Shown: in pieces, positions 11,825 through 32,482 of the stretch
Layout of the letters: every line of letters begins with the position of its first letter
Numbering within the stretch: the stretch's first letter is position 1
NCBI GenBank assembly: GCA_963833985.1
Contig: CAWIAD010000002.1
Location: 3,072,001 to 3,136,000, forward strand
Length of the DNA stretch: 64,000 nucleotides
Origin: an uncultured Planctomycetaceae bacterium
GTDB taxonomy: Bacteria > Planctomycetota > Planctomycetia > Isosphaerales > Isosphaeraceae
Direction of reading: 5' to 3'
Program-made: the position numbers and the translations under genes
The notes under the pieces: model-generated
Told to the model about the DNA's origin: nothing
Databases searched by the model: none
What the model saw: only the letters and a program-made list of their open reading frames with translations

Positions 11825-12300
11825 GGATGAGCAAAGATCTCGAGGCGTGGGCAGGAGAGAGGAATCCGACGGAAGAAGGAACGCAACCGGTGAAAGTACA
11901 TCCTTCCACAGTCATTCCGTCGCGCACAAGGCTGGTTGTGACCAGGCAGGAAGCCTTCCGAGAGGATGCGTCACTCAGAAGTGTCCTCATAACCCCCGGC
12001 TGCCAGTTTCTTCCAGAGTATCCCACCCTGGTCAACGAATTCACCGGACACATGAAGCGATCCAAACTCTTGCCGAGGCGCGGTGACTTGCTCGCTCAAT
12101 TCCTCGACTTGAAGCTCAAGCCGGCGTTCTTCGCTTTCGACGACTCGTGGAGTTTCTGCTCATGCGCGAGGCGTTCCTTCACGAGGCCTTCAGCGAAACT
12201 TCCTGAACTTCAAGTTTGGCCCGTCCGCGGCCGATGAATGATGAAGCCGTCACCCCATGGCCCGTGGTGGCGCGGATCCCCCTCCTGGCAAGGAATGCCC

Positions 12301-13335: not shown

Positions 13336-13985
13336 GTGTCCCTATGCATGCCTCGGGGGCACAGCAGAAACTGAACCGGCAGTCATTGAGAGCGGGCAAG
13401 ACCAGCGACACAAGTCCGATCAACACAACCGCCGCTTGACCCCGGGCCGAGCAAGGGACGGGTATCACCGGAATTGCATAGGCTGCTCAAGGAACACTCC
13501 GGGCTGACCCTGGGAACGCCCCGGGGTCGAAGCCTTCGCCTGCCAGGATGTTGCGGCAGAATGCTCGGATCCATTCAAAGTCCAATGTCCGGATCCAGGC
13601 CCGTTCGGTCCCTGGTGTAGGGAGGACTGCACGGCGGTGCTTCCGCACAGCATGCCACAGCCGCGACGACCAGGGACCAGGGACCAGGAAACCAGGACCC
13701 GTGCTGGCGAACCCGTCTTGACTGTTGCACCGACATGGCGCGGAAGGCCTGGGGATCACCACGCATCATGATCAACACTCTTAATAAATGAAAACTCAAT
13801 GTCTTGGTATAGTTTATTCACCGTTTGGATTTGACCTTCCGATACAGTAACGCGAGATGTGGGCATGAGCACATTCAGCGGGCCCTCCGCGGTAATCCCC
13901 AGCCGGCTCACGTCAGCCGATCCCGGTCTTAAAAAACCTGCGCCACGACGGTCGCGGGCGCTCAACTCCATGCCCGGAGCAAAAC

Positions 13986-16501
13986 ATGAAGTTTTCACCC
14001 GGTACTCACGGTGCTTCCACGGTGACGCGACCGACCCGGCCCGCCGGGCGCCCCTCCAGGGCCCGCCGCCCCAGCCTGGACGTCGAGCGCTGCGAGCAGC
14101 GAATTCTGCTTTCGGTCGCGCTGGTGAGCGTCAACTCCGCGGGCACCGGCAGCGCCAATAGTGGTTCGGATTTTCAATATGCCAATATCAACTCCGCAGC
14201 CAATTCTCCGGTCCCGTCGGCCCAGACCAACCTGAGCAGCGACGGGTCACGGCTTGTGTTCGACAGCGAGGCGAGCAATCTGGTTCCATCCTTGAAAGAT
14301 ACCAACCTGGCAAGCGACGTGTTCCTGCGTGACGTGAAGGCGGGCACCACCTCACTCATCAGCGCGACTCCTGGCGGCCAACCCGGCAATGGCGCCTCGT
14401 TTGACCCGACGATCAGCCCCAACGGCCGGTACGTCGCGTTCGTCAGTCAGGCCACCAACCTCACCAGCATCCCCGTCCCGTCGATAGACACCACAGGTGG
14501 CCAGGCGACCGGCTACCTCTACGTCCGCGACCTTCAGACGAATACGACGACTCTCCTTGAACAAACCCCGGCAGGACAGGCAGCGGACGGCTTGAGCACC
14601 GGTCAATTCGTCTTCAGTCCCGACAGCATGAAGCTCGCCTTCACCGACACTTCCGACAACCTGACCACGGTGGCCGTCGATCCCGGCGCGAACTCGAGCC
14701 CGGGCGGCCAGCCCGACCCCTGGAACGGCTCGTTGACCTACGTTTACGTACGGAACCTGGCGGCACGGACCACGTCGCTCGTGAGCGTCTCGACAAGCGG
14801 CCTGGCGGCCGGCGACTATCCCGGGGCCGTGCCCGGCGGAGAGCCGGGCCCGGTGTGGAGTCCGGATAGCCAGTCTCTCGCCTTCAGCAGCAGCGCGGCC
14901 GATCTGACAGCCAATGCTGCTGACAGCGTCTCTAATCCCGACCAGATCTCCGCAGGTATTCCCGGCAGCGAAAACCTCTACCTCCGCAACACCTCGGCGG
15001 GAACCACGACGCTGCTCAGCGTTACCACCAAGGGACTGATCTCGGCCGGCGAGAGTCTTGGTGCGGTCTTCAGTCCCGATGGCAAGTCGGTTGCGTTTGT
15101 CAGCAGCGCCGCCAACCTGACGGCCAGCGCCGTCGATACCACACCGCCGATCGCGGGACTTGCTGATGCAAAAACATATGAGAATGTTTATGTGAAAAGT
15201 CTGGCCTCTGGCACGACTACCCTGGTCAGCGCCACGCCCGGAGGTCTGCAGTCCAACGGAATCGCCTCCCAGCCCGTTTTCAGTCCCGATAGCCGCTCCC
15301 TGGCGTACATCACCAACGCCAACGACCTCGCCAACAAGTCGCTGGACTCCACTCCACCGCCTGGCGCCTCGTTTTTTGGGATGCCCAGCCTGCCTGCTGA
15401 CAACCTCTTCCTGACCAATCTGGCGACTGGTACCACCACGCTCGTCAGCGCGACTCCCACAGGTATCTTGTCGAGCGGCATGGTGGGTCAAATCCTCTTC
15501 AGTCCCGATGGCAAACTGCTGGCTTTCACGAGCAACGCCGGCGACTTGACGAATAACCCGGTGGAAAGCTCGCCTCCCGCGGCCCCCGGATCTTTCGCTG
15601 GCAGTCCGAGCGGCAGCCTGTTTCCTATTAGCAACGTCTTCGTCCGCGACCTGACCGCCCAAACAACGACACTTGCGTCGGTGACCGCGAGCGGCCAGCT
15701 CTCGAACAGCGTCGCCGGCGGCTTGATTTTCAGCCCTGACAGCAAGTTGCTGTTCTTCAGCAGCACTGCCGGCAACTTGACGGGCAACCTGCCGGACGCG
15801 GCTACCTCGGCAGGCCCGACCACGAATCTGTTTGTGCGCGATTTGCCGGCGGCTGCGACATCTCTGATCTCGGCCACGACGAGTGGACGGCTCTCGGACA
15901 ATTCCACCTCCGCCAGCGCGTTCCTCTCACCGGACGGGAAGACACTTTACTTTGAGAGCGGCGCCAGTTTGCTGACGGCCGGAGACTCGAATGGCTCCGT
16001 CGACATCTTCGCGGCATCGGCACCATTCACGGCTCCGAACGTCTCCCCCCCTCCCCGTGCCAGCCCACCTCCCCGGCCGCAGCCGCGCCGCAGCCTGGCC
16101 CGGCTGTCGTCGGTTTGACACCCCTGGACAGTCGGCACGGCATCACCAGCGTGGTTGTCACGTTCAATCAGGCGCTCGACCCCGCGTCAGCCCAGAACCT
16201 GGCCAACTATCAGATCACTTTGCCTGGCCGCACCGTGCATACACACCCCGGCCACCTGACCACCACCCATCCAGGCCGCTCCGTGGTCATCAAGAACGCG
16301 GGCTACAATGCAGCGACGCACCAGGTCACCTTGACTCTGCGCACGCCACTCCGGCGCGGCGCGGCGTATCAATTCCGGGTGAATGGCGCCGCAGCGAGCG
16401 GCGTGGAAAGCACGAGCGGCGCTTCGCTCAACAGCCCGGGCAAGCTGAAGCCAGGGAAGGACTATCAGGCCGTACTGGACCTGGCAACGCCGCGGTCGTG
16501 A
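13986..16501 (+). CDS. Secreted PD40/TolB-like repeat beta-propeller protein with C-terminal Ig-like domain; frameshift in C-rich tract ~16045-16060
   Basis: VERCEQRILLS leader; repeated FSPDG..AF.S.A.NL and ..RDL..GTTTLVS units. The frame of ORF 16115..16501 extends upstream as GPAVVGLTP..VVTFNQALDPASAQNLANY. Confidence 0.75.
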
Positions 16502-16756
16502 GGTTCGGAGCTCAAGCTCGCGCCACGCGCAAGTTCCAGAGAGCTCATGCTGGTCTCCGTCATAAACCTTCGGACACATGGTGCTGATGCCACCAGGTCG
16601 TGTCCGGAGGCTCGAAGAGCAAGCTCTCACTGCGCGGAAGGCCCTGAGAACGCGCTCGCGTGGTCGGTCTCGGTGTACGCGGTGGCTCCCTGGGTGCTGC
16701 GGCGATCAGTTGGCGTGAGGAGCCCATTGTCCCGAGGGCAAGGCAGGGAGCCACTG

Positions 16757-17337: not shown

Positions 17338-17816
17338 GTCGGCACCAGACGCCGGCGCGTAGTGGGTATGCCTGCCGATTCTGACGATACCCTGACGTCT
17401 TTCACCATAGGCGGTCTTGCGTGGCCCACACTCCCGAGGGACAAATGCTTTCGGGATGAGTGACTCGCCGATCCGCCGGGGACAAAACAGTTTTCGCCAT
17501 TCCGGTGGGCGATCCTGGTTTTCGGCTTTTGCAGCCGAAGAGTCATGATGGTCCAACCGAGCGATCCCATCGACTCCACGTTTGTCCAAAGTTCCGGACG
17601 CTTGCCGGCAGTTCAACGCATCGAACTGGTGGGGCGTGGTAGCGATTGAGGTCGATTGATCAAACAAGGTGAATCCCAAGGGGGGGCGAAGATGTCCCCC
17701 GAAACTCCAACGACAGAAGTGAACGCGCCGACCAGGTTTCCACGGACTTGTCCGTGATCGATCCGCCGAGAGCGCGGAACGACGGCCCCGCCAGGTCACG
17801 CGCGGGAGACCACTCC

Positions 17817-19088
17817 ATGAATCCCATCGGTTTCCTCAGACGGCGACCCGTCATTTCTCTCATGCTGTTCGTCGCGCTTCTCAGCGGCGGGGTCTTGTTA
17901 TTGTCGGGGATTCAGCCCGACATCTACCCGCTCAATACGCCAGGAATTCGCGCATACATGGCTCACATCGACACGCGTACCAACAATGTGAAAACGTACG
18001 TTGTCGACCAGTATGAGTCATATTCTCACACGCTCGACGAAGAACCCGGCGCGGAGAGCCAGACGATCGTCGTCAGCACGGCTCTGGTCAAGGACGTCAC
18101 CATCACCCAGCAGTATGTCTGCCAGATTCACTCGCGGCAACACATCGATGTGCGGGCCCTGGAGGACGGTTATCTCGAGCAGATCAAGGTCAAGGAGGGC
18201 CAGGCGGTGAAACAGGACGATGTGATGTTCACGATCGTGCCAACTCTTTACGAGGCAAGGCTGGACGCCGAGGTGGCCGCGAGAGACATCGCGCAACTGG
18301 AGTTGAATAACACCAAGAGGTTAGCCACCAGGAATGCTGTCTCTCCGAATGAGGTGAAGCTGTTCGAGGCCAAGCTGGCACAGACCCAGGCGAAGGCGAA
18401 CCAGCAGAAGGCGGAACTGTATTTCACCATCGTCCGGGCACCTTTCGACGGTATCATGAACCGTTTACGTGAGCAGAAAGGAAGCCTGGTCCAGAAGGGT
18501 GACGTTCTCACGACTCTGTCCGACAACAGCGTGATGTGGGTCTATTTCAACGTCCCGGAGGCTCGCTACCTCCAGTACAAGGCCCTCCAAGGTAAGCCCG
18601 ATCTGGACCATCCGGAACGACTCAAACTCGTGGATTCGCGAATCGTGCTCGTGCTCGCGGACGGAAGCACGTTCAAACAGACCGCCGGTGATGTCCTTAC
18701 CGTCGAGGGCAGTTTCGACAACCAGACCGGAAACATTTCCTTCCGCGCGGATTTTCCGAACCCGGATGGCCTGCTGCGCCATGGTCAGACCGGCGACGTG
18801 TTGATCCACCGCGCGTTGCATAATGCCATCGTCATCCCGCTCCGGGCCACGTTCGAGGTTCTCGACAAGCGCTACGTTTACGTGGTCGGCGAGGATCATG
18901 TGGTGCATCAGCGCCTGATCACCGTCGAGCACGAACTGGAGGACATCTTCGTGATCAAGAAGGGGCTTGAGGCGGAGGACAGGATCGTGCTCGAGGGGGT
19001 CCGGCAGGTCCAGGACGGCCGGAAGGTGGAATACGAGTTTCGTGCCCCGGAACTCGTGCTGGCAAACCAGAAGAATCATGCGGAATAG
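17817..19088 (+). CDS. RND efflux periplasmic adaptor (membrane fusion protein)
   Basis: GYLEQIKVKEGQAVK lipoyl half, IVRAPFDG, WVYFNVPE, FRADFPNPDGLLRHG; adjacent to RND permease. Confidence 0.92.
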   Translation: MNPIGFLRRRPVISLMLFVALLSGGVLLLSGIQPDIYPLNTPGIRAYMAHIDTRTNNVKTYVVDQYESYSHTLDEEPGAESQTIVVSTALVKDVTITQQYVCQIHSRQHIDVRALEDGYLEQIKVKEGQAVKQDDVMFTIVPTLYEARLDAEVAARDIAQLELNNTKRLATRNAVSPNEVKLFEAKLAQTQAKANQQKAELYFTIVRAPFDGIMNRLREQKGSLVQKGDVLTTLSDNSVMWVYFNVPEARYLQYKALQGKPDLDHPERLKLVDSRIVLVLADGSTFKQTAGDVLTVEGSFDNQTGNISFRADFPNPDGLLRHGQTGDVLIHRALHNAIVIPLRATFEVLDKRYVYVVGEDHVVHQRLITVEHELEDIFVIKKGLEAEDRIVLEGVRQVQDGRKVEYEFRAPELVLANQKNHAE

Positions 19089-19137
19089 CAATCACTTCGC
19101 GTCACGAAGCGGAACTTAACCTGATCGTCTCAGAACC

Positions 19138-22100
19138 ATGTTCACGAACATCCTCTATCGGCCGGCACTGGCGATCGTCATCTCGATCATCATCCTGTTC
19201 CTGGGAGGACTGGGGATCGCAACGCTGCCGACATCCCAGTTTCCCGATGTCGCACCGCCGACCGTTCAGGTTGCCATTGCTTATCCCGGTGCCAGTGCCA
19301 ATGTTCTGGTCGATTCGGTCCTGATTCCGTTGGAGCAATCCATCAACGGCGTTCAGAACATGCGTTACATGGTCTCCGACGCGACAAGTGCCGGGGAAGC
19401 AACGATCCGGATCTTCTTCGAGCCAGGCACGAACCCAGACATCAATGTGGTGAACGTGCAAAACCGGGTCAACATCATGATGAACCGTCTCCCGCCACTG
19501 GTGCAGCGCGAGGGCATCCTCGTCAGCCAGGTCGTGCCGAGCATGCTGATGTATGTGAACATCTACAGTACAGATCCAAACGCCGACCAGAAGACGCTTT
19601 ACAATTTCGCCAACGTCAACGTCATGCCCGTGCTCAAACGGATCCAGGGCATGGGTATTCCCAGGAACCTTGGCAACCGCTCCTTCGCGATGCGGATCTG
19701 GCTGAACCCCGACCGCATGCGCGCCTACTCGATATCCACCGAGGATATCATGAAGGCCGTGGCGGAACAAAGCGTGATCGGTTCACCTGGACGGCTCGGG
19801 CAGGCCACGGGCAGGACGTCGCAATCACGCGAATACGTCTTGACCTATATCGGGCGCTATAACAAGCCGGAACAGTACGCGAGCATCGTTTTGAGAGCAA
19901 ACCCCGACGGTGAGATCTTGCACCTCAAGGACGTCGCCGAGGTCGAACTGGGCTCCGAGTTCTTTGACATTTACTCGGATATCAATGGACATCCCGCGGC
20001 ATCCATCATTCTCAAGCAAAGCCCCGGCTCCAACGCAGCCGCGGTCATCGAGGAAATCAAGCGCGAACTGGAGCAGATCAAGAAGGAGTCCTTCCCCCCC
20101 GGTATGGACTACGAACTCGCCTACGACGTTTCCCGGTTTCTGGACGCCTCCATCGAAAAGGTGCTGCATACCCTGCTCGAGGCGTTCATCTTGGTGTCTC
20201 TGGTGGTTTATCTGTTCCTAGGCAATTTACGATCCACGCTCATTCCGACCCTCGCGGTCCCGGTGTCGCTGGTCGGGACCTTCTTTGTCTTGAAGTTGAT
20301 GGGTCTATCAATCAACCTGATCACGCTTTTCGCAATGGTCCTCGCGATCGGTGTCGTGGTGGACGACGCAATCGTGGTGGTCGAGGCGGTGCACGCCAAG
20401 ATGGCCGCGAAGGACCTTTCGCCCTATCGGGCGGCCATGGAAGTTCTTCGCGAGATCAGTGGCGCGATCATTGCCATCACTCTGGTGATGACGGCCGTCT
20501 TCATTCCGGTGACCTTCATTCCGGGTCCGGTGGGCCAGTTCTACCGCCAGTTCGGTATCACGATGGCCACGTCCATCGTTCTCTCCGGCCTGGTGGCCCT
20601 GACGCTGACACCCGTGCTCTGTGCGATGATTCTCAAGCCCCACACTCACACTCATAAGGGCCATGCGAAAAAGCAGTTCAAGCCAAAGGTCGTTCTACTG
20701 TATGTTCTCGGCGGGTTGCCGATCCTGGGGCTGATCACTTATCTGGCGTATTATTTGTGGGGGCCGGTCGGCTTCCTCTTCCCGCTCCTTCCCTTTGTCC
20801 AGAAAACGATTGACCGGCTCGTCGAGAAGGTCACGGGGGGTTACGCCAGGATCTTGCGGCGGATCGTCACACGCCGCACGCTGACCATGGCCGTCGTGGC
20901 GATTTTTGCCCTCGGTATCGTTTACGTCAACACGCGGCTACCGTCGGGCTTCATCCCGGGTGAGGACCAGGGCATCATCTACGCAGTCCTCCAGACGCCT
21001 CCGGGCTCGACGCTCGAGTACACCAACGCCAAGTCCGAGGAACTCAAGGAGATCGCCAAGAAGATCAACGAAGTCACCTCGGTCACCTCGTTGGCCGGTT
21101 ACGAGGTCCTGACTGAAGGCCGCGGCTCGAACGCGGGAACGTGTATCATCAACCTGAAGAACTGGTCCAACCGCCAGCGAACCGCGCGCCAGATCATTGC
21201 CGAGCTCGAGAAAAAATGCAGTCGGATGACCAACGTCAAGCTCGAGTTCTATGAGCCCCCCGCAGTCCCTGGCTTTGGCGCGGCCGGGGGCTTCTCCATG
21301 CGGCTCCTCGACAAGACGAACACGTCCGATTACCAGCGGCTCGGAGAAGTCACCGACAAGTTCATGGCTGCGTTGTCCAAGCGCAAGGAATTGAAGAACC
21401 TGTTCACATTTTATACAGCCGACTACCCGCAGTACGAGCTGATCATCAACAACGACCGGGCCATGCAGAAAGGCGTATCCATCGGCAGGGCGCTGGACAA
21501 TCTGAACATCCTCATCGGAAGTACTTACGAACAGGGCTTCATTCGCTTCAACCAGTTCTTCAAAGTTTACGTCCAGGCGTTGCCGGAGTTCCGGCGCAAC
21601 CCGGAGGACCTGGGCAACATGTTTGTCAAGAACGAGGCCGGGAACATGGTCCCCTACTCCTCGTTCATGAAGATCGAAAAGAAGCAGGGCTTGAACGAAA
21701 TCACGCGATATAACCTGTATCCGTCCGCCGCTATTCAGGGTGCTCCTGCTCCCGGATTCAGCAGCGGTCAGGCCATCAAGGCGATCAATGAGGTCGCCGC
21801 CAGGACCCTACCACACGGTTACGGCGTCGGCTGGGAAGGCCTCTCTTACGACGAGGCGAGAAAGGGCAACGAGGCCATTTATGTCTTCCTGATCGTCGTT
21901 GCGTTCGTCTATCTGGTACTGGTGGCGCAATACGAGAGCTTCCTCCTGCCGCTGGCCGTGGTCCTGTCACTGCCGGTCGGCATCTTCGGGTCCTTCCTGT
22001 TACTGCGGCTCATGGGGTTGGCCAATGACGTCTACGCCCAGATTGGTCTGGTCATGCTGATCGGTCTGCTCGGCAAGAACGCGATCTTGATCGTCGAATT

Positions 22101-22389
22101 CGCGGTCCAGCGGCGTCTGGAAGGCGCGTCTCTGATGGAGGCGGCCGTCGAAGGAGGAAAGCTGCGATTTCGGCCGATTCAAATGACCTCCTTCGCCTTC
22201 ATCGCTGGTCTCATTCCGTTGGTCTTTGCCACCGGCGCCGGGGCGATCGGCAACCGCACCATTGGCAGCACGGGGGCCGGCGGGATGCTCCTGGGCACCG
22301 TGATCGGAGTCCTCGTCATTCCCGGCCTTTATTACGTCTTCGGCCGGATGGCCGACGGGCGCGAACTTCCTCGGGGACGAGGTGGCTGA
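19138..22389 (+). CDS. RND efflux permease (HAE1/AcrB family)
   Basis: QFPDVAPPTV, AMRIWLNP, LAIGVVVDDAIVVVE, KNAILIVEFA, RFRPIQMTS; 1083 aa. The last codons may be frameshifted. Confidence 0.95.
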   Translation: MFTNILYRPALAIVISIIILFLGGLGIATLPTSQFPDVAPPTVQVAIAYPGASANVLVDSVLIPLEQSINGVQNMRYMVSDATSAGEATIRIFFEPGTNPDINVVNVQNRVNIMMNRLPPLVQREGILVSQVVPSMLMYVNIYSTDPNADQKTLYNFANVNVMPVLKRIQGMGIPRNLGNRSFAMRIWLNPDRMRAYSISTEDIMKAVAEQSVIGSPGRLGQATGRTSQSREYVLTYIGRYNKPEQYASIVLRANPDGEILHLKDVAEVELGSEFFDIYSDINGHPAASIILKQSPGSNAAAVIEEIKRELEQIKKESFPPGMDYELAYDVSRFLDASIEKVLHTLLEAFILVSLVVYLFLGNLRSTLIPTLAVPVSLVGTFFVLKLMGLSINLITLFAMVLAIGVVVDDAIVVVEAVHAKMAAKDLSPYRAAMEVLREISGAIIAITLVMTAVFIPVTFIPGPVGQFYRQFGITMATSIVLSGLVALTLTPVLCAMILKPHTHTHKGHAKKQFKPKVVLLYVLGGLPILGLITYLAYYLWGPVGFLFPLLPFVQKTIDRLVEKVTGGYARILRRIVTRRTLTMAVVAIFALGIVYVNTRLPSGFIPGEDQGIIYAVLQTPPGSTLEYTNAKSEELKEIAKKINEVTSVTSLAGYEVLTEGRGSNAGTCIINLKNWSNRQRTARQIIAELEKKCSRMTNVKLEFYEPPAVPGFGAAGGFSMRLLDKTNTSDYQRLGEVTDKFMAALSKRKELKNLFTFYTADYPQYELIINNDRAMQKGVSIGRALDNLNILIGSTYEQGFIRFNQFFKVYVQALPEFRRNPEDLGNMFVKNEAGNMVPYSSFMKIEKKQGLNEITRYNLYPSAAIQGAPAPGFSSGQAIKAINEVAARTLPHGYGVGWEGLSYDEARKGNEAIYVFLIVVAFVYLVLVAQYESFLLPLAVVLSLPVGIFGSFLLLRLMGLANDVYAQIGLVMLIGLLGKNAILIVEFAVQRRLEGASLMEAAVEGGKLRFRPIQMTSFAFIAGLIPLVFATGAGAIGNRTIGSTGAGGMLLGTVIGVLVIPGLYYVFGRMADGRELPRGRGG

Positions 22390-22557: not shown

Positions 22558-22646
22558 GGGAGCGGGCATCCGCTGGCTGACGATGACGGTTCGCGGTCGG
22601 GCCCACGAATGAAGCCAAGCGGGATTGGCGGACCGTCCGCCGTGGT
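22558..22646 (-). pseudogene. Isolated diverged fragment of the comEC 3' region (metallo-beta-lactamase domain)
   Basis: Encodes HGGRSANPAWLHSWARPRTVIVSQRMPAP versus HGGRSANPPWLYSWAKPRAVVVSQRMPAP at 30039-30127 (24/29 aa identical, ungapped). Confidence 0.9.
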
Positions 22647-22838
22647 CCGGTAAGTTGGTCCCGCCAGGCCATCCAACGGTTACATGTAACAATACAATTA
22701 CAAACATCGTACCAGAGTCACCGTGAAGCGCTTCAGGGCCGCGTCCGTCCCGGCAGCGACGGTCACACCGAGATGGGCATGCTGTCCCCGGAACCCGTGC
22801 AGTCAGGCCCGCGCAGCAAAGCGGCCGCAAACATCGGC

Positions 22839-23243
22839 TCAGCCTGGTAGGAACGCCGAGGGCCGCACGCCGAAGTACCGGGCCAACACGATCACCTGCT
22901 CCTTCGTCAGTGAGCGAGTGCCGTTCATGATGGCCGAGATCGTCGACTGCGTGATTCCGACCCTGGCTTCGAGCATCTTCTGGGTCAGTCCGTTTGCCCG
23001 CATCAGTTCTTTCAGCACGTCGCCTTCGAAAACCTCGCGGGCCGGCTCGTGGACCGCCTCGTAACGCTCTACCAGGTCGGTCAGGGCGTCGAGATACAGC
23101 TCGGTCCCCTTATCCGAAGGGACCCGGAGCAGCTCATCCAGGATCGCCTGGGCTCGCTTCAAGTGCGCATCGTCTCGAATGCTGGCCAGGGGGAAACGTT
23201 CCACGAGCTTGAAGTAACTTGCCGGAGCCGTCTTTACCGCCAT
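22839..23243 (-). CDS. higA: HigA-family antitoxin (HTH-XRE)
   Basis: FPLASIRDD, LDALTDLVERYE, HTH LTQ..L...GITQSTISAIMNGTRSLT; directly downstream of higB. Confidence 0.9.
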   Translation of the reverse strand: MAVKTAPASYFKLVERFPLASIRDDAHLKRAQAILDELLRVPSDKGTELYLDALTDLVERYEAVHEPAREVFEGDVLKELMRANGLTQKMLEARVGITQSTISAIMNGTRSLTKEQVIVLARYFGVRPSAFLPG

Positions 23244-23246
23244 GGA

Positions 23247-23591
23247 TTACTTGCCTTTCTTCCGCTTCGGCGGCGGCTCGTGACACCCGCAATCGTCGAT
23301 CCAGCGCCCTTTGTCGTATTGGGCATGGTCCATCACCTTGAGCACGTACACGATGCCCCTGGCATAGTTCACGCGCCCGATCAAACGGTACCGATTGTTG
23401 CCGACATCGAACACCACGCAGTTGCCCACCGTGCCTGCCGATTGGAATGCTTGCCTGAGCACTCCGAAGTTCGGCCAATCTGCGTTTTCGGTCACCTTGC
23501 GCCAGGTCGATATGTCACGCTCCGCAATCAGCGAATCAGCGCCGCGCGACTCCCAGAACTCGCGCAACCGGCGATTGGAAATAACCCTCAC
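23247..23591 (-). CDS. higB: HigB-family mRNA interferase toxin
   Basis: GTG start with GGAG RBS; RVIS.R.LREFW, VVFDVGNNRYRLI..VNY, H..YDK motifs. Confidence 0.9.
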   Translation of the reverse strand: MRVISNRRLREFWESRGADSLIAERDISTWRKVTENADWPNFGVLRQAFQSAGTVGNCVVFDVGNNRYRLIGRVNYARGIVYVLKVMDHAQYDKGRWIDDCGCHEPPPKRKKGK

Positions 23592-23798
23592 TTCCGTGAT
23601 CTCCTTCCGCACGCCTGGCCGGGCGCGGTAGGTCCTCCGTCGACATTATCGCTGAGTGCGATATTCCAGTCAACCCGAGTATCGCACTGTGCGATCGTCA
23701 TCCGCACGGAGAAATTTGAGAGACATTGGTGTCGGAGAAATTCGTGTCAGAGAGGAATGGCACTCGGATAGTGCAAACCGATCACCCCAACAACACTC

Positions 23799-23876: not shown

Positions 23877-24017
23877 CAGGGGTTACGTTATCCGAGTGCC
23901 AGTCTGAACCGACACCGAATTCCGGACATGAACTAGAGTTTCGGTATGGGCGGTCCACCCCGATGCTGCATTGCGAAGGTGCGATGGACGGTGGCTCGTC
24001 CTTGGAGGAACTGCCCC

Positions 24018-25247
24018 ATGCCTCAGACGGATTTGCCATCTGGGCTAACGCGCCTTGGTTGCTTCTCATGGTGGGCTCGGGTCCTCGTGTTCTCCACCTC
24101 AGCCCTCATCTCGTCGGCAGCGGAGGGCAAGTCGTCTGAAACGACGTTCGCCGAGGTCATCGGCCAGCACTTCCAGGCCTGGGACCTGAATGGAGACGGT
24201 CGGCTCGAGGTCCACGAGATCGACCGCTTGACGTCCGAACCTTCGATCCGAGGCGACGCTGCCGCGGCGCTTGCAGCCATCAAGATTCACGAGCGAAAGA
24301 TTGGCGGGGCGGAGCACCGTAGGTTCGCCCCCGGACTTGACGAGCTCCAGGGCCGTATTGTGAGCGGGCCCCGTCCGATGGTCCCAGCAGGGCCGTTGAT
24401 CACCGGGCCGACCGTGCCATATTCCTATGAGCATGCGTTTCGCCGGCTAAGCGCCGAACTCGGCGCGGTGCCCTCCTTCCTCTTCGCTCACGACGTCCCT
24501 GACTTCGGTGTCCTGCGTCAGGGCTCGATCAAAGACTGCTTCTTCTTCAGCGTGATCGGAAGCATCGCGGCGCTTCGACCACGACGAATCGTCTCGATGA
24601 TCGAGCCCATGGCCGGCGGCGGTTTTGTCGTGCGATTCCCAGATGGGCCCCTGGTCCGTGTGCCACCCGTGACGCAGGCCGAGGCCCTCGTGAACAATAC
24701 GCTCTCCACGCTAGCAGATGGGCTCTGGCCCGTCGTCCTGGAGAAGGCCGTCGGTGAGATCGACCGCGAACATACCACACGCGACCGCCGGACCGCCGAG
24801 CCGACAGACTCTATCGCGCACGGCGGTTCGACCAAGAGGACGATGTGGCTCTTCACCGGTCACGCCTCATACGAGTTCATCCTGCGCCGTCCGCAATACG
24901 AAGCCCGAGACCTGGCCGAGATCCGCCGAATCCTACCGCAGACATTGGAAGCCGGCCGGCTGGCCACCGCATCGATGGGGCGGTACCCGGCCGGCCCGAA
25001 GAAGGTTCCGAAGCTGGGCTACAAGCACGGCTACGGCGTGATCGGCTTCGACCGTCGAACCGACGAGCTTGTCCTATGGAATCCGTGGGGTAACACATTC
25101 ACCCCGAACGGCCCTGAAGGCCTCGAACACGGCTTTATTACCAAACACGGCGTCTTCCGGGTCTCCCTGAAGACGTTCTACGAAAACTTCTCGACTCTCC
25201 ACGTCGAGTCAGCCGAGCTGCTGCCTTCCCGCTACAGAAAGATATGA
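24018..25247 (+). CDS. Secreted calpain-like (peptidase C2) cysteine protease with EF-hand
   Basis: QGSIKDCFF (Cys), W..LEKA, KHGY (His), WNPWG (Asn); EF-hand DLNGDGRLEVHE; GGAGG RBS before ATG 24018. Confidence 0.8.
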   Translation: MPQTDLPSGLTRLGCFSWWARVLVFSTSALISSAAEGKSSETTFAEVIGQHFQAWDLNGDGRLEVHEIDRLTSEPSIRGDAAAALAAIKIHERKIGGAEHRRFAPGLDELQGRIVSGPRPMVPAGPLITGPTVPYSYEHAFRRLSAELGAVPSFLFAHDVPDFGVLRQGSIKDCFFFSVIGSIAALRPRRIVSMIEPMAGGGFVVRFPDGPLVRVPPVTQAEALVNNTLSTLADGLWPVVLEKAVGEIDREHTTRDRRTAEPTDSIAHGGSTKRTMWLFTGHASYEFILRRPQYEARDLAEIRRILPQTLEAGRLATASMGRYPAGPKKVPKLGYKHGYGVIGFDRRTDELVLWNPWGNTFTPNGPEGLEHGFITKHGVFRVSLKTFYENFSTLHVESAELLPSRYRKI

Positions 25248-25343: not shown

Positions 25344-25426
25344 GAGTTCTCCGAAGTCTGGTGCGGATTCTGGAGACGGCTGTCTGTGGCTTTTCCAGGA
25401 GGACTCATGCCCTCAAGTCCTCACGG

Positions 25427-25774
25427 TCAAGAGTAGGGGAGATACTCGACCCGGTTTTGCAGATCGTCCGGGTCGAGGGTTCTGGCAATCAACTCCAGGT
25501 CGCGAACGGCCTGGCCAATGGAAATACCGAACTGGTGCGCGTACACGACGCCAGAGAAAGCCGTCCCTGTTTGCAGACGCCCGTGCGCGATGACCAGCAG
25601 ATCTTGGTCCTGACTGAAAAGCACGCGGCCAGGTGACGTGGCTCGGTCCAGGAGAGGGTCGTCGTCAAGCCTTGCTGACCCATCCTCTTGAGCGGTAAGT
25701 ACGTCCACTCCCCGGTTCCGCAATCCCGCAGTGATCGCCGCAGGCACGTGATGATCCATGTACAGCGATACCAT
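25427..25774 (-). CDS. DUF5615 PIN-like toxin (in frame with upstream DUF433 as sequenced)
   Basis: LYMDHHV....GLR.RGVDV.T, D..LL..AT..GRVL.SQD.D, H/F.GVVY motifs. Confidence 0.85.
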   Translation of the reverse strand: MVSLYMDHHVPAAITAGLRNRGVDVLTAQEDGSARLDDDPLLDRATSPGRVLFSQDQDLLVIAHGRLQTGTAFSGVVYAHQFGISIGQAVRDLELIARTLDPDDLQNRVEYLPYS

Positions 25775-26089
25775 CAGGAGGCAAGACCTTCGAGCCTTGA
25801 TCTTGGCTCGCAGAACGGATTCACTTTGATGTCCCCGGAGATGCTCGACCGCACGCAACTGTTCATCGATGGCTCGATCCATTTCCTCCTGATGGTCGTG
25901 ATAATAGGCCAGGCAACTGTGAATTTGTCCCAGCGTGAGGTGCGGGTGTTGGCGCTGAATCTCATCGGCATCCCAGTGGTGTGCCAGACGATCCAGGGCG
26001 ACCTCAAGAACTTTCGTTTGTGTCCCAATCAGCCAAACTTGACCGTCGGCGCGATTCTCGACGTGAGGGTAGTTGGTCGGAGTCGACAT
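25774..26089 (-). CDS. DUF433 antitoxin
   Basis: AGGAG RBS; I.GT.TKV, EIQRQHPHLTLGQIHSCLAYYHDHQEEMD. The expected stop (TGATG overlap at 25774-25776) is one base out of frame. Confidence 0.85.
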
Positions 26090-26338
26090 GGTTTTCAGCT
26101 CCTGTGGAGGACTCGCACGAGTCCCATGGATATCATACACAGGACGCAACGCCGGGGCATGGCTCGAATCGCAAAGGCCCCGTCTGTCGGCACAGGAGCG
26201 ACAGCGAGATCGGAGCGGCTCGGAACGGGATGCCGCCAGCAGGATTGACCGACCAAGAGTTGCGGGGACGGACACCAAACGCAATTCTTGACGGCATGCA
26301 ACTGGTCTCGGTCCATTTTTCGACGGGACGAGTTACGA

Positions 26339-26434
26339 TCAACGCTGATCGCGCTGATCCAGGAACCCTTCCGTGATGATCCCGTCCGATCGCCATTGTA
26401 AGTGGACGGCCCCGAGTTGCCAGGTGCGCAGCAG
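26339..26434 (-). pseudogene. Second diverged fragment: extreme 3' end of a comEC homologue including its own stop
   Basis: Encodes LLRTWQLGAVHLQWRSDGIITEGFLDQRDQR* versus LLRTWQRGAVHFKWRSDQIITEGFLD of resident comEC (22/26 aa identical, several synonymous changes). Confidence 0.92.
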
Positions 26435-26441
26435 GAGAGAG

Positions 26442-26917
26442 GAGAAATCAGTGTCGAGAAATCAGTGTCAGTTCATTTTTCTGAGAAATCAGTAAAAGAG
26501 AAATCAGCAGAGAGAGAAATCAGTGTCAGTTCATTTTTCTTGACGGAGCAGCAGAGAAATCAGCGTCGAGAAATCAGTGTCAGAGAGAAATCAGGAGAGA
26601 AATCAGAGAGAAATCAGTGTCAGTTCATTTTTCTTGACGGAGCAGCAGAGAAATCAGCGTCGAGAAATCAGTGTCAGAGAGAAATCAGAGAGAAATCAGG
26701 AGAGAAATCAGTGTCAGTTCATTTTTCTTGACAGAGAAATCAGTGTCAGTTCATTTTTTTTGACGGAGAAATCAGGGAGAAATCAGTGTCAGTTCATTTT
26801 TCTTGACGGAGAGAAATCAGTGTCAGTTCATTTTTCTTGACAGAGAAATCAGTGTCAGTTCATTTTTTTTGACGGAGAAATCAGGGAGAAATCAGTGTCA
26901 GTTCATTTTTCTTGACG
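26442..26917 (+). repeat. Array A: ~22 head-to-tail units starting GAGAAATCAG, 9 containing the full GTGTCAGTTCATTTTT core
   Basis: Directly readable. Unit lengths 11-40 bp; higher-order duplications 26514-26607/26608-26701 and 26702-26810/26811-26917. Confidence 0.95.
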
Positions 26918-26941
26918 TAAGCCCGCATCTCGCCGTAACAT
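26912..26941 (+). promoter_or_regulatory. Putative sigma70 promoter for a leaderless RAYT transcript
   Basis: TTGACG (26912-26917, end of last repeat unit), 18-bp spacer, TAACAT (26936-26941); ATG 7 nt later at 26949, no SD. Confidence 0.5.
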
Positions 26942-26948
26942 GGGCATC

Positions 26949-27671
26949 ATGGGACGTCTTCCTCGCGCCACCGACGACGGTCTGGTTTACCACGCGATGA
27001 ACCGCGGGAACAACCGCGCCGACGTCTTCGTCGGCGATGGCGATCATGAGGCCTTCCTCGAGTCGCTCCGGGCTGCGAAGGACCGTTATCCCTTCGCACT
27101 ATTCGGTTATTGCCTGATGAGCAACCACTTCCACCTCCTGCTCAAGCCGAGCTCAGGGCAGTCGATCAGCCGGATCCTCCAGTCGCTCAGCGTGGCCCAC
27201 ACGTGGCGATACCACAAACGGCACCGCACCTCGGGGCACGTGTGGCAGGGCCGCTTCAAGAGCCCGGTGATCCAGGACGATGACCACCTGCTGGTCGTGC
27301 TACAGTACATCGAGGCCAACCCTGTCCGCGCCGGTATGGTCGCCGACCCGAGGGCCTACCGGTGGTCGAGCTATGGCCAGCACGGACTGGGACTGGTTGA
27401 CAAGCTTTTGGACGGTTTCCCCGAGTGGGAGCATCTCGGCCCGTCCGAGGTGGAGCGTAGGCGGCGGTGGCGGGCAAAGCTGCTGTCGGCGCAGAGGCAG
27501 GACGAACTGACAGCGGTACGCGACTCGTTGCGAACCGGACGCCCGCTGGGCTCTCCCGCCTGGGTCGAGGGAGTCGCGACTCGATTGGGCATTAACCTGA
27601 CCCCGCGCCCGCGGGGCCGGCCTCGAAAGGAGGAATCGGCATCGGCCGGAAGTGCCCGAAAAATGAACTGA
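26949..27671 (+). mobile_element. REP-associated tyrosine transposase (RAYT, HUH Y1 family)
   Basis: YHAMNRGNNR..VF, YCLMSNHFHLL (HUH), GHVWQGRFKS, YIEANPVRAGMV (catalytic Tyr), YRWSSY, C-terminal RPRGRPRK. Stop codon lies inside the first right-hand repeat. Confidence 0.93.
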
Positions 27672-28092
27672 CACCGATTATCACGAAAAATGAACTGACA
27701 CCGATTATCTCCCGAAAAATGAACTGACACGCGATTATCAGCCCGAGCAGGACGAATGAAGCGTAGGACTCAACCGGACTCCGCTGGCTCTCCTGGCACT
27801 CGATTGCATCTCTTGACCCCGCGCGCGGGGCCGGCCTCGAAAGGAGCAATCGGCATCGGCCAATGAACTGACACCGATTATCACGAAAATGAACTGACAC
27901 CGATTATCTCCCGAAAAATGAACTGACACCGATTATCTCCTGACACCGATTATCTTCGCGAAAGGAGCAATGGCATCGGCCAGAAGTGCCCGAAAAATGA
28001 ACTGACACCGATTATCCCCCGAAAAATGAACTGACACCACGATTATCCCCGAAAAATGAACTGACACCGATTATCTCGACACCGATTATCTC
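27657..28092 (-). repeat. Array B: ~11 units ending GACACCGATTATC, inverted relative to array A, interspersed with partial copies of the RAYT 3' end
   Basis: Repeated GAAAAATGAACTGACACCGATTATC(TC); 27741-27861 and 27957-27990 resemble 27495-27658. Confidence 0.95.
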
Positions 28093-28196
28093 GCGGAGGA
28101 CGAGTCAGGCGGTGGAACCCTCTAGCAGCCGTGTCTGGCGGGGTTCTCAAGACGATTGATTGCGTGCAATCGGGACTTTGGTCCCAAACGTTCAGC

Positions 28197-28955
28197 TTAC
28201 GAGGCGATCTTGAACCGCTCTGCGAGCAAGTCGAACTCGTTCTCTCCCTGGATTGCCCTCCTCTTGGGAAACCGGATCGGCAGGCTTTCGAGATTCCATA
28301 TCTGGGTCACAATCTCATCCCATGGCAGCGACCCACGCGGCATGGTCGATCGCTGGTCGTTGGGGTCAACGGGTTTGACCCTTAGCACCTGGATGATCAG
28401 AGTGCCGAAGCCGATCGTCATCGCGTACGCGCGGTCGCCTGCCCCTTCTCCCCTCATCTCCAACAGCCTGGCGACGACAAAAGGTCCAGGCGATCCTTCC
28501 CATCGACATACCCACACATGCGTTTGGATAGGAATTGGACGATTCTCATACGAATAGAAGACCGTCCGCTCCTGATCGGTGAACCGCCAGACACCTGGGG
28601 GATTTCTCGTCTCGGAACACATCGCGGTCATCACAGCCCAAGAGGTCAGCAGCTTGCATTCGCAAGCATCGAAAGAGACAGACGAATTCGATAGAAGGGA
28701 CTTGATGAGCGGCTTCGCGCCTTCCTGCAAGCGGCTCATCCATCCAACATTGCAATATTGACAGACGGATCTTACGGTCAGCCTCAGATCAGTGACCCTC
28801 GTGCATAAAACGGGCGAGTTCATGTCTCCCTGGTATTCGAGCGTCCCGTGCCCCTTGAACTCCTTTCGCAGCCAATTAGGGAACACGTGTTCCTCCGAGC
28901 CAGCCTCTTTGCCACAGAAGATGCACTTCTCGGTCGTCGAGTATTTCTTGCTCAT
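28197..28955 (-). CDS. Putative HNH-like zinc-binding endonuclease-domain protein
   Basis: N-terminal CIFC...SEEHVFP.W and VC..CN.GWMS.L(E/Q) pattern typical of HNH-like zinc domains; lower GC than core genes. Confidence 0.6.
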   Translation of the reverse strand: MSKKYSTTEKCIFCGKEAGSEEHVFPNWLRKEFKGHGTLEYQGDMNSPVLCTRVTDLRLTVRSVCQYCNVGWMSRLQEGAKPLIKSLLSNSSVSFDACECKLLTSWAVMTAMCSETRNPPGVWRFTDQERTVFYSYENRPIPIQTHVWVCRWEGSPGPFVVARLLEMRGEGAGDRAYAMTIGFGTLIIQVLRVKPVDPNDQRSTMPRGSLPWDEIVTQIWNLESLPIRFPKRRAIQGENEFDLLAERFKIAS

Positions 28956-29407
28956 CACGTGACCTTGCGAACAAGCTGATCCGTCGATTGAGATTGATTG
29001 TGTGCTGGAACGTGCCGCGAGTGGAATACTTCACCCGCATCTTGAAGCAGCCGAGGTCGTGGCGCGGGAGGGGGATGCGGTCGACTGGAATACAGGGCAG
29101 GCGGCTCCGCTCGATACGCAAGTCCTAACAACTTACGGGAGCGGCATCAAGCGAGGAGGCAGAACTGCCCAACAGGTGAAGTCCGAATCGCGAAACGACG
29201 CTCGTAGGCGGGAAGCGTGGCAAGTCAGCTAAGGAATGCGATCGCGTGATGTTCGTCGCTGACAGAATTTTCATTTATTTTGAAATGTCTGAATCGCCAG
29301 AATCTTCTTGAATCCATCCACGCAGATAGTTGGAATGAATGAACGCTGGTCCAGAGCTAAGTTTGCAGCTCGTAGACTAACTGTAGGACAGTAAGAGGGG
29401 CTTCTGG

Positions 29408-29768: not shown

Positions 29769-29882
29769 GGAATGCTTCGGTGTCAGTTCATTTTTCTGGC
29801 GCAGGAATGCTTCGGTGTCGGAATGCTTCGGTGTCAGTTCATTTTTCTGGCGGAATGCTTCGGTGTCAGATCATTTTTCCCG
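29769..29882 (+). repeat. Array C: 4 units starting GGAATGCTTCGGTGTC with the same core as arrays A/B
   Basis: Units at 29769, 29804 (truncated), 29820, 29852; the last overlaps the comEC stop (29871-29873). Confidence 0.95.
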
Positions 29883-32482
29883 AGGCAGGAGTTGTGGTCC
29901 AGTTTGATGCGGGTGATCCAGGAACCCCTCCGTGATGATCTGATCCGAACGCCACTTGAAGTGCACGGCCCCGCGCTGCCAGGTCCGCAGGAGTGGAATC
30001 CCGCTTCGCTCAAGGGGCATGAGGGCGTCGCTCGTCCCGGGGGCGGGCATCCTCTGGCTAACCACAACGGCTCGGGGTTTGGCCCAGGAGTAGAGCCAGG
30101 GAGGATTGGCGGACCGTCCGCCATGGTGGGGGGAGAGCATCAGGTCGATGGGCTCGGGCTGAGCCTGGGCGACCAGCTCGACGAGGCCGAGCTGGTCCAG
30201 GTCGCCGGTGAGCAGGAGGTGGTGGCCAAGGTGCTCGACGTCGAGGACCAGGCTGCGGGCGTTGTCGGGCGTTTCCGGGTGCCAGCCCCGAGGCGGATGG
30301 AGCACCGTGAAATGAACGGTGGCCTGGGTCCACTGCCGCGGCGCGGCAATGGTGCGGATCGGAATGCGCCGGGCCCGGAACTGATCCAGCAGCAAGGTCA
30401 CGCCTGGGTTTTCCTCGGTCTCGGTCACGAAGCCAGCCGGGAGGACCAGCTCGCCGACCTGGAAGCGGTCCAGCAGGTCGGGAATCCCGTTGTAGTGGTC
30501 CTGGTCGGCGTGGCTGAGGTAGATGGCGTCGATCCGAGCGATCCCGCGTGACCAGAGCGCCGGGGCGATGATCCGCCGCCCCACGCGCGGGTCGCCCATG
30601 CGCCCGCAGTCATAGAGCAGGGTCCGGCCGTCGGGCAGATGCAGCACGACCGCCAGACCGTGACCGATGGCCAGCAGATCGCCTTCGAGCGTTCCGCCCG
30701 TTCGAGCCGGTGAACCGAGCAGCCAACCGGGAAACGTGCAGGCCGGCACGGCCAGCCAGAGGAGGAACCGCCAGAATCGCCAGCGCGGAATGAGGCCCTC
30801 CAGTGCGCACGCGGCGCTGGCGACCGTCGCCAGCAGGAGCAGCAGGTAGAAGACCGCGACGGTGACCCAGGTCGGGCCGGGCACGAAGACGTATCCCCAC
30901 GGCTGGGAGGCACCCCAGCGGACGATCTGCTCCGAGAGCCGCAGCAGCAGATCGGCGGCATGCACCGGCACGCTGGCCAGCGGGCTCCAGATCGCGCCCA
31001 CGACCATGCCCCCGGCCCCCAGCAGCAGGGCCAGCGAGGTGAACGGGATGAGCGGGATGTTCAGCAGGACGCCGATCGGTGAGACGAGATGGAACCGCAG
31101 CGCGACCAGCGGCAACGCGGCCAGCCAGACGACCGCGGAGGTGAGAAGGCCCCTGCCCAGCCAGGACAGGGCCCAGTCCAGACGCCTTCGCCAGCGCGGC
31201 TGATACGTACGCTTGAGCGCTTCGATGGCGTCAGACGGACGTTTGAGCATGGTCTTGACCGTGGAGACGATCTCCCCGAGCAATCCCCGGGCCATGGGGA
31301 CCAGCCAGAAGAGCGCGGCGATGGCCAGGAAGGAAAGCTGGCAGCCAACGTCGAACAGGAAGAACGGGTCCCATGCCAGGGTGAGCAGGGCGGCCAGTGC
31401 CAGGGTGTTGGCCGGCGCGAGGACCGTTCGACAATCGCGGCCAGGCAGAAGGTGAAAGTCATGACGGCGGAACGCACCACCGAGGGAGCCAGGCCAACCA
31501 GGAGGGCGTAGCCCACGGTGCCGGCAGCCACGCCGCCGTAAACCAGCCGGCGCGGCAGGCCCAGCAGGCGCAAAAGCAGGCCGAGTGCGACGGCCAGGAT
31601 CTGGATTTGAAGGCCCGAAATCGCCAGCAGGTGGGTGGTGCCGGTGCGGGCGAAGGCGTCGTTGGTCTCCGGATCGATGTCCTCGCGCTGGCCGAGGATC
31701 AGGGCTGAGGCCAGAGGCGCGGTACGTTCGTCGAGCGGAGCGACGAGACGGTCGCGGCAGGCGGCCCGCAGGTCACCCAGCCAGCGGTGCAGGGGCCACG
31801 CCTGGCCGTCGGGATTGACCGCAATTCCCGAGCCCTGGTCGACCGTGATGCGCAGGCGAATCCCCCGCGCCCGCAGGTACGCGCGGTAATCAAACTCGCC
31901 GGGGTTGAGCGGTCCGGCGACCCTGGAGAGCTGACCGGCCAGCTCGACGGGCTGGCCCGCGTGCAGGTCGCTCCGGTCGGCCGCGACGGTCACAAGAACG
32001 CGGCAGGAGACGTGGCGCCAGCGGCTGCCGTCGCAGACCGCGGTGAGCTCGACCTCCAGGCGCGTGAGAATGCGCTCGGGGTCCCCGGGGCCATAGCCTG
32101 TTGCGCTGCGGGTGCCCAGCGTTTCGGCGATGACTCCGCGTGCCCAGACCGCCTGGCTGGCCTCGCCGACACTGCTGCTCACATCGTCATCCGGCAGGTC
32201 GTTCCAGCAGTGGTGGTGCCAGCCCGCGGCCAGGGCCAGGATGGCCGCCAGCATGCTCGCCCGCGAGCCCAGCGCGTGACGCAGGGCCAGGCAGGCGACG
32301 GTGGAGGCGGCGAGGGCCAGGCCGGCCCAGGTTTCCGTAGCCAGGGAGCCAAGATGGCGATCGATGATGATTCCGCAGGCGAACGCTGCCAGGGCCGGAG
32401 CCAGCGGTGCGATCGACACGCAGGGGCGCTGCGAATCCTGGATGGCTGCCAGCGGATCTGGAGCGCTCAGGGAACCGTGCAC
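29871..32482 (-). CDS. comEC: DNA uptake competence protein ComEC/Rec2 (DUF4131 + competence + MBL domains); frameshift ~31420
   Basis: NPGEFDYRAYL, TGTTHLLAISGL, PSVVRS in ORF 31061..32482; GCQLSF, GHGLA, YDCG, SHADQDHYNG, LTGD, PHHG in the 29871 frame. Confidence 0.93.

What the first reader, a model, noticed from the sequence alone, without database searches (positions are those of the whole stretch)
26339..26445. A second comEC 3' end, cut exactly at the outer edge of the RAYT repeat array
Seen: the last ~31 codons plus stop of a comEC homologue (22/26 aa identical; 7 synonymous codon differences over the aligned part) begin within 7 bp of the first GAGAAATCAG unit. The resident comEC has its own tail ending in array C. 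Inference: the RAYT terminus was joined into a comEC gene. The 3.5-kb block 26435-29990 looks like an insertion that replaced the comEC tail, reminiscent of att-site gene reconstitution but with no integrase.
Basis: partly seen in the sequence, partly recalled or inferred. Interest (0 to 1): 0.8.

Follow-up and report, generated by a model that had tools for sequence, protein, structure and literature searches.

The report
Stacked comEC tails from serial insertions
The extra gene end is one of four leftover ends of the DNA-uptake gene comEC in this stretch, and related bacteria stack ten or more of them, which likely marks an insertion site where small gene cassettes enter again and again and rebuild the gene's end, while the neighbouring jumping gene probably only trimmed this copy.

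Summary
Observation confirmed: 26434→26339 is a second comEC end (22/26 aa, 7 silent changes) abutting the RAYT array. It is not unique. The window holds four comEC ends, and 9 of 14 same-genus genomes have several. Of 51 extra copies, 29 start at the SPHHGG codon, 20 of them behind a conserved ~50-bp non-coding arm; 3 start at a second motif; 16 are 5'-trimmed. The cassette behind this fragment is 90% identical to one in G002, which keeps the full tail and arm and has no RAYT beside it. Neither window tail is ancestral: ComEC was likely fused to a hydrolase, now left at array ends. So att-like gene rebuilding is supported, but the RAYT (multicopy, TIRtron-like) most likely trimmed an already displaced tail. 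No recombinase was found in the arrays; the enzyme is unknown. Closest known: tandem accretion of integrase-less elements at a gene end. This scan noted similar comEC fragments (e1-4462731) and stacked gene tails (e1-9575725) in other genomes.

The parts
29871..32482 (-). Resident comEC (DUF4131, Competence, metallo-beta-lactamase domains), split into two ORFs by a 1-bp deletion near 31430 (real or assembly error)
30124..30131 (-). Main junction core (CCCCACCA, Pro-His codons of SPHHGG), where most extra tails in relatives begin
30490..30514 (-). Second junction position (SHADQDH motif), used by 3 extra tails in relatives with a different arm; not used in this window
29871..30131 (-). Current (likely replacement) comEC tail, 87 codons, ending inside a transposase terminal repeat
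29769..29884 (+). Array C: stuttered copies of the terminal repeat; the innermost overlaps the comEC stop codon
28197..28958 (-). Cargo ORF, 253 aa, low G+C; no Pfam, NCBIfam or PADLOC hit; nearest Atlas cluster auto-named HNH endonuclease (lead only)
27654..28096 (-). Array B: right-hand repeat array of the RAYT
26940..27671 (+). RAYT / TIRYT-like Y1 transposase, 243 aa; second copy (94% aa) elsewhere in the genome, not at comEC
26436..26916 (+). Array A: left-hand repeat array; its outer edge is joined to tail 2
26289..26435 (-). Tail 2 (the finding): 5'-trimmed displaced comEC end plus its decayed terminal repeat (26304-26321)
25352..26288 (-). DUF433 + DUF5615 cassette; with tail 2 it is 90% identical over 1085 bp to a cassette in the G002 array that keeps the full tail and arm
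23946..25247 (+). Calpain-like peptidase cargo; decayed terminal-repeat copies at 23706-23758
22839..23612 (-). HigB-HigA-like toxin-antitoxin pair (cargo)
22643..22701 (-). Decayed conserved arm (long form), the only arm match in window 1-40000
22558..22650 (-). Tail 3: displaced comEC piece starting at the main junction, 3'-trimmed (aa 389-419)
17748..22389 (+). RND efflux genes; an 82-83% identical RND gene lies next to a comEC tail in G007 (opposite relative orientation)
13501..16508 (+). PD40/Big_5 cassette, 84-89% identical to a cassette between two tails in the G010 array
11875..11970 (-). Tail 4: decayed last part of a comEC tail (E 5e-7)

Best explanation
The fragment is a 5'-trimmed comEC end within an array of such ends, likely left behind when small cassettes inserted one after another at the SPHHGG codons of comEC, each bringing a replacement end, and the RAYT's left end probably deleted its first ~137 bp and the arm later. 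Shown: a fixed junction, a conserved arm in front of displaced tails, the hydrolase-fused end at the far end of arrays, and cassettes shared between species. Inferred: each unit is [tail + terminal repeat + cargo + arm], circularises or transfers as such, and recombines at the CACCA core through a site-specific recombinase supplied in trans or since lost, which I did not find. Also inferred: TIRtron-type transposases join their repeat's outer edge to new DNA and so trim tails and change cargo.
For: Fixed junction: of 51 extra copies in the genome loci fetched, 29 start at window-equivalent 30120-30144, 20 of them behind the arm; 3 start at 30514/30515; 16 are 5'-trimmed; 3 other (starts). Independent check of the arm: a pattern holding the arm plus only CCNCACCA gave 26 metagenome contigs; 12 look like true arms and 7 continue into a comEC tail, 14 look like chance. 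Polarity: ComEC runs on 390-455 aa past this motif in G004 and in 6 of 10 other-genus family loci, same-genus residents end after 61-104 aa, and the hydrolase part follows the last displaced tail in G005, G006, G008, G009, G011, G013, G131 and three metagenome contigs. Near-identical copies (94-96%) carry either intact comEC or the arm upstream of the same base, and the Pro codon follows the arm, so the crossover is in or just after CACCA. Tail 2 plus its cassette match G002:C29 at 90% over 1085 bp, and G002 keeps the full tail and arm. Cassettes are 84-90% identical between species whose flanking core genes are 67-78% identical. The RAYT is a passenger: 6 copies at 92-94% in G009 (2 in comEC arrays), 2 in G000, none found in G010, with unrelated left flanks in the 5 G009 copies printed; in G009 the same end abuts a tail cut at a different point. 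Tails end in the terminal repeat in 24 of 59 cases (at most 4 mismatches of 19) against 0 of 3000 random windows.
Against: No tyrosine or serine recombinase lies in any array examined; the nearest is a broken integrase fragment 3 kb from one arm. No free attP form, phage or plasmid carrying the tail or arm was found. The bases 5' of the core differ between arm and comEC, so the usual 7-bp overlap identity must lie within CACCANGG, which varies at one base. No arm remnant survives in 26435-29990, so its deletion is inferred, not seen. A linkage test between the two halves of the tails was inconclusive. No reads span the locus. Two other-genus loci (G015, G016) have short ComEC ends without known arrays and two more look frameshifted. 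The arm models were built from the same loci they score, and the tails are kin, so the counts are not independent events.
Confidence: 0.68

Rival explanations
1. For this junction only, the RAYT's left end attacked a comEC gene at codon ~441 in a donor, released a circle (tail + array C + cargo + RAYT), and the circle entered the recipient comEC by homologous recombination in the shared tail.
For: The joint is flush with the array edge, with a few bases of microhomology. Tail 2 has an open frame and mostly silent changes, so it was functional until recently. No arm lies in the block. An unchecked note reports a similar RAYT-type circle event elsewhere in this genome (e1-8385654).
Against: The two tails are only 84% alike over at most ~135 bp, a poor substrate for homologous entry. 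5'-trimmed tails are common (16 of 51), most without this RAYT. In G009 the same RAYT end is joined to a tail variant with an early stop, which cannot have been the working gene end. It does not explain the genus-wide fixed junction.
Confidence: 0.14
2. One or a few founder insertions made the arm-tail junction long ago; since then arrays grow, shrink and move between strains only by RecA recombination between tail copies (for example after natural transformation), with TIRtron ends swapping cargo. No dedicated recombinase acts today.
For: No recombinase found in arrays. 270-bp direct repeats next to the DNA-uptake gene are ready recombination substrates. Many arms and tails are decayed.
Against: The arm is conserved in boxes (mostly 0.8-0.9 pairwise identity in the upstream box) with a variable 11-bp middle, against 0.52 at third codon positions of the tails, and has two exact spacings, 7 and 16 bp; this looks like selection on a binding site. 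Three different junctions exist (codons 261, 389 and ~394 in another genus), so insertion has recurred.
Confidence: 0.12
3. An HUH (Y1) enzyme recognises the arm as a single-stranded hairpin and transfers it to the CACCA core, so the whole system is HUH-driven and could use single-stranded DNA imported by ComEC.
For: TGGTG/CACCA inverted repeat at the arm's end; Y1 genes and their repeats are frequent in the arrays; a few arms join non-comEC DNA just after CACCA.
Against: The stem is only 5 bp with a 14-nt loop and shows no compensatory change (0 pairs). The RAYT's own ends show no target preference, which does not fit a single-gene target.
Confidence: 0.04
4. The duplicate is an assembly artefact at a repeat array.
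For: The comEC frameshift hints at long-read indel errors; no spanning reads are available.
Against: The copies differ by 16%, mostly silently, and tail 2 is continuous with a cassette found in another species.
Confidence: 0.02

Closest known systems
Integrative elements whose attP carries a replacement gene end (icd-site prophages, tRNA-gene islands; PMC10111431, passages read; e14/icdC name recalled)
   Same: Insertion inside a gene, a replacement end of up to ~250 bp keeps the gene whole, and the old end is displaced to the far side.
   Different: No integrase in the units; up to ten or more stacked units; target is comEC; replacement ends are 70-85% alike, come from other species and end in a transposase terminal repeat; the first insertion cut off a fused hydrolase domain.
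CIMEs and tandem accretion (PMC5704250, passages); Dehalococcoides ssrA islands, 15 without integration module (PMC3146451, passages)
   Same: Tandem units bounded by direct repeats of the target gene's end, many without integration genes, likely moved in trans or in cis.
   Different: There, integrase-bearing relatives at the same site are known; here none was found. The repeats are 270 or 650 bp of coding DNA, not ~20 bp of an RNA gene.
Elements that target comEC or comM (review PMC12378983 and CAST paper PMC9881144, passages)
   Same: A competence gene is the repeated target.
   Different: Those disrupt the gene; these rebuild its nuclease domain, which matters for transformation (PMC8579336, passages).
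TIRtron / TIRYT, TnpA-Y1 subclass 2.1 (PMC3733652 passages; PMC6006769 passages and section 17)
   Same: Y1 transposase of 243 aa with NHFH, WQ and YIEANP motifs, flanked by terminal inverted repeats close to GGGGWSAS.
   Different: High-identity multicopy behaviour, stuttered ends, and its repeat built into the comEC stop codon are not described in the passages read.
C-terminal displacement arrays of rhs / cdiA / mafB genes (recalled; also named in e1-7110534)
   Same: Orphan 3' gene ends stack downstream of one full gene and start at a conserved motif.
   Different: There the tail is the variable payload; here the tail is conserved and the payload is unrelated cargo, with a non-coding arm at each junction.

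Membership tests
Integrative element with replacement gene end / CIME accretion array | Direct repeats of the target gene's 3' end that begin at a fixed base | tested here: met
   29 of 51 extra copies start at codon 389, 3 at codon 261
Integrative element with replacement gene end / CIME accretion array | Target gene stays in frame; ancestral end displaced distally | tested here: met
   this window's comEC has a separate 1-bp frameshift upstream
Integrative element with replacement gene end / CIME accretion array | Conserved element-side att arm | tested here: met
Integrative element with replacement gene end / CIME accretion array | Cognate integrase in the unit or in a related element at the same site | tested here: not met
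   none in arrays of 5-6 genomes searched by family, nor among ORFs scanned; my ORF picker may miss genes and the assemblies are broken
Integrative element with replacement gene end / CIME accretion array | Excision to a circle, empty site | not testable with these tools
   no run of this organism with spanning reads
TIRtron / TIRYT (TnpA-Y1 subclass 2.1) | Y1 HUH transposase with class-2 motifs and about 238 aa | tested here: met
   PF01797, NF047646 just over cut-off; motifs compared with Table 1
TIRtron / TIRYT (TnpA-Y1 subclass 2.1) | Flanked by terminal inverted repeats, not REP hairpins | tested here: met
   inverted arrays A and B; core GGTGTCAG is 7/8 to GGGGWSAS
TIRtron / TIRYT (TnpA-Y1 subclass 2.1) | C-terminal helix-turn-helix domain; placement in the subclass tree | tested here: inconclusive
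   no HTH hit at E 0.01; no tree built
Integron / CALIN | attC hairpins and an IntI integrase | tested here: not met
   no tyrosine recombinase in arrays; arm stem shows no covariation; attC models themselves were not run

The most novel reading that the evidence does not exclude
This is an active, integron-like gene-capture platform built on the end of comEC: a host- or helper-encoded recombinase not yet recognised stacks cassettes at metal-binding-motif codons of the DNA-uptake nuclease while always rebuilding it, TIRtron transposases load new cargo at the repeat that forms the comEC stop codon, and the cassettes spread between species by the very transformation machinery they preserve.
Probability: 0.2. 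Interest if true: 0.85.

Novelty: new variant of a known kind. Interest (0 to 1): 0.62.

Why it matters
Known mobile elements that hit competence genes break them. Here insertions at comEC repeatedly rebuild the nuclease domain, stack to ten or more units without an integrase in sight, and carry cassettes that have moved between species. It gives a sharply defined recombination site (arm + CACCA core) whose enzyme can be hunted, a natural truncation of a ComEC-hydrolase fusion, and many natural junctions for the untested TIRYT enzymes. The single junction in the finding is a minor, eroded member of this system. My searches found no paper on comEC tail arrays, but the library lacks most subscription papers and I read no supplements.

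Tried and rejected
Recombinase hunt: Pfam scans of 145 + 64 + 42 picked ORFs, family searches PF00589, PF07508, PF00239 in five genomes each, and a search for gene relics upstream of 32 arms found none tied to arrays; the G002:C52 integrase is a fragment; the best arm-like hit near a G000 integrase lies inside a coding gene and is chance. No tail or arm in viral contigs or plasmids. Arm not found in 141 genomes sampled across the class, a search with no strong positive control. Arm as a single-strand hairpin: no covariation. Arm as a sigma-70 promoter: no fit by eye, not scanned. RAYT inserted cleanly into tail 2: the missing 5' part is not on the far side of the RAYT. Tails 2 and 3 as two halves of one opened circle: tail 3 is nearest the G002 cassette's tail (83% against at most 81%), too small a margin. 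Linkage test of tail halves: inconclusive. Reads: one run with 5% of words, no spanning contig. tRNA-Cys as the ancestral neighbour (seen in G002, G007): rejected in favour of the hydrolase. Defence-island reading: 3 of 38 cargo proteins hit PADLOC. Paper searches gave nothing useful.

Full report
Observation. The fragment is real. Minus-strand 26434→26339 matches the last codons of the resident comEC at 84% over 80 nt, with 22 of 26 identical residues and 7 silent changes. It starts 7 bp from the first GAGAAATCAG unit. Homology continues past its stop into a decayed copy of the repeat that also overlaps the resident stop codon. The same searches show a third comEC piece at 22650→22558 and a fourth at 11970→11875.

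A genus-wide array. Searching 41 relatives with the ComEC C-terminal half showed many short extra matches downstream of comEC. With the 87-aa tail, 9 of 14 same-genus genomes give two or more matches, up to 17, some of them frameshift halves; G005 and G013 add one decayed copy each. Of 107 other family genomes, 6 give two matches: three are adjacent frameshift halves, one (G088) I did not examine, and G020 and G131 are true second copies. G010 has 10 extra tails within 35 kb of one contig. I fetched most but not all of these loci. Of 51 extra copies in genomes, 29 start at the Pro-His codons of SPHHGG (window-equivalent 30120-30144), 3 start at SHADQDH (30514/30515), 16 are 5'-trimmed, and 3 are other cases; 5 metagenome copies were left out of this count because they were found through the arm.

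The arm. Twenty of the 29 sit behind a non-coding arm: a 10-bp box, a spacer of 7 or 16 bp, TTGGTG, 11 variable bases, then CCNCACCA. The box columns are mostly 0.8-0.9 in pairwise identity, against 0.52 at third codon positions in the tails. A pattern search of metagenomes gave 26 contigs; 12 look like true arms, 7 continue into a comEC tail that the pattern did not ask for, and 14 look like chance. Copies 94-96% identical to each other carry either intact comEC or the arm upstream of the same base, and the third base of the Pro codon goes with the arm, so the crossover is in or just after CACCA. The three codon-261 copies share a different arm, and G131, another genus, has a single 3.4-kb insert with a third junction near codon 394. 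In the genus the arm model finds arms almost only at these arrays. The window's own arm at 22701→22643 is decayed.

Which tail is ancestral. Neither. ComEC continues 390-455 aa past this motif in G004 and in 6 of 10 other-genus family loci; two are short and two look frameshifted. The continuation is an alpha/beta-hydrolase. Same-genus residents stop after 61-104 aa, and the hydrolase follows the last displaced tail in several arrays. This is the order expected if new units enter at the comEC end and push the old end away. In G000 the hydrolase, TPR and trpS genes lie about 168 kb away on the same strand, without a tail, with core genes in between, so the array was broken by rearrangement.

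The finding's cassette. Window 26435→25352 (tail 2 plus DUF433/DUF5615) is 90% identical over 1085 bp to G002:C29, where the tail is whole and has an arm, and where the only match to this RAYT is on another contig. The window copy therefore lacks about 137 bp of tail and the arm. A second window cassette (13501-16508) is 84-89% identical to one in the G010 array. Flanking core genes are 75-78% (DUF362) and 67-70% (comEC 5' part) identical to those three genomes, so cassettes have likely moved between species.

The RAYT. It is a Y1 transposase with motifs and length of TnpA-Y1 subclass 2.1, which probably equals TIRYT (PMC6006769, passages and section 17; PMC3733652, passages). It is multicopy: two in G000, six in G009 of which two lie in comEC arrays, none found in G010. 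Left flanks of the five G009 copies printed are unrelated. In G009 its left end abuts a tail cut at another point, a variant with an early stop. Among 18 trimmed tails, 4 have a repeat just upstream against 3% background and 5 have a repeat or terminal-repeat motif, one of them a plain short tandem. Its terminal repeat forms the stop codon of many tails: 24 of 59 within 4 mismatches, 0 of 3000 random windows, and absent from hydrolase-fused tails; tails are kin, so this is one old event amplified, not 24. Array C shows that this repeat at the resident comEC end has been re-copied. I infer that the enzyme joins repeat ends to nearby DNA and so trims tails and changes cargo; its chemistry is untested.

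The missing enzyme. No tyrosine or serine recombinase lies in the arrays, no relic is evident upstream of arms, and no phage or plasmid form was found. The inverted repeat in the arm shows no covariation, which fits a double-strand binding site better than a hairpin. Cargo is mixed (TPR, kinases, LRR, hydrolases, toxin-antitoxin pairs, IS elements, group II introns), with few defence hits (3 of 38). No reads span the locus, and a linkage test could not separate the arm route from a RAYT-made circle for this junction.

Comparison. Replacement ends of up to ~250 bp are known at icd and tRNA genes (PMC10111431, passages), and tandem accretion of integrase-less elements is known (PMC5704250 and PMC3146451, passages). 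comEC is a known target, but of elements that disrupt it (PMC12378983, PMC9881144, passages). The C-terminal domain is a nuclease important for transformation (PMC8579336, passages); SHADQDH fits its motif II, and that HHGG holds a metal ligand is recalled. It works like a CIME accretion array, but the cognate integrase test failed, so I do not file it as a member. Searches (listings only) found no description of comEC tail arrays; no supplements were read. This scan has unchecked notes of comEC fragments in a cassette array (e1-4462731) and of stacked gene tails in a methanogen (e1-9575725), both on other DNA.

Verdict. Observation confirmed, interpretation partly supported. Best reading 0.68; RAYT-circle 0.14; relic plus homologous recombination 0.12; HUH at the arm 0.04; artefact 0.02. 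New variant of a known kind, interest 0.62.

Noticed in passing
window ~31430: comEC has a 1-bp deletion against six relatives; the hflC-like ORF at 34697-35881 also looks frameshifted. Real or long-read error is open.
   Followed up: partly
L075:~5568; L058 (right end of RAYT); L042:~3515: A group II intron is inserted at the same base of the terminal repeat (after ...AACTGACA or its variant) at a comEC end and at a RAYT end; related introns (88-90%) recur in the arrays of G008, G009 and G010.
   Followed up: no
L006, L008, L011, L012, L014, L015, L018: ComEC fused in frame to a membrane segment and an alpha/beta-hydrolase in many family members.
   Followed up: partly
L104:5080-8900 (G131): Independent single insertion in comEC in another genus, tails ~92% alike, junction near codon 394, LRR cargo and an IS1595-like element, no integrase.
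   Followed up: partly
L078, L079, L055, L120, L121, L050:11614-11683: Arms joined to non-comEC DNA just after the core: possible secondary sites.
   Followed up: no
L091, L093, L036:~17480, L032:~18230, L042:~230: A ~55-bp insert with a CTAG palindrome and a G-run right after HHGG defines a dead tail variant found in several genomes.
   Followed up: no
G000:C2:4723685-4724372: Three stacked 5' fragments of the RAYT with repeat arrays.
   Followed up: no
G000:C2:3674595-3679871: Small element with a ParB-like gene, an ATPase and a 244-aa tyrosine recombinase lacking an N-terminal domain; similar-scoring recombinases in G002 and G010.
   Followed up: no
L049:13082-13300; L039:6250-6420: In G002 and G007 a last tail abuts a tRNA gene (Cys anticodon by eye) on the opposite strand.
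   Followed up: partly
L035:5867 and 15532: Two tails in G002 share 700 bp of 98%-identical upstream DNA without the arm: a recent duplication or another joining route.
   Followed up: no
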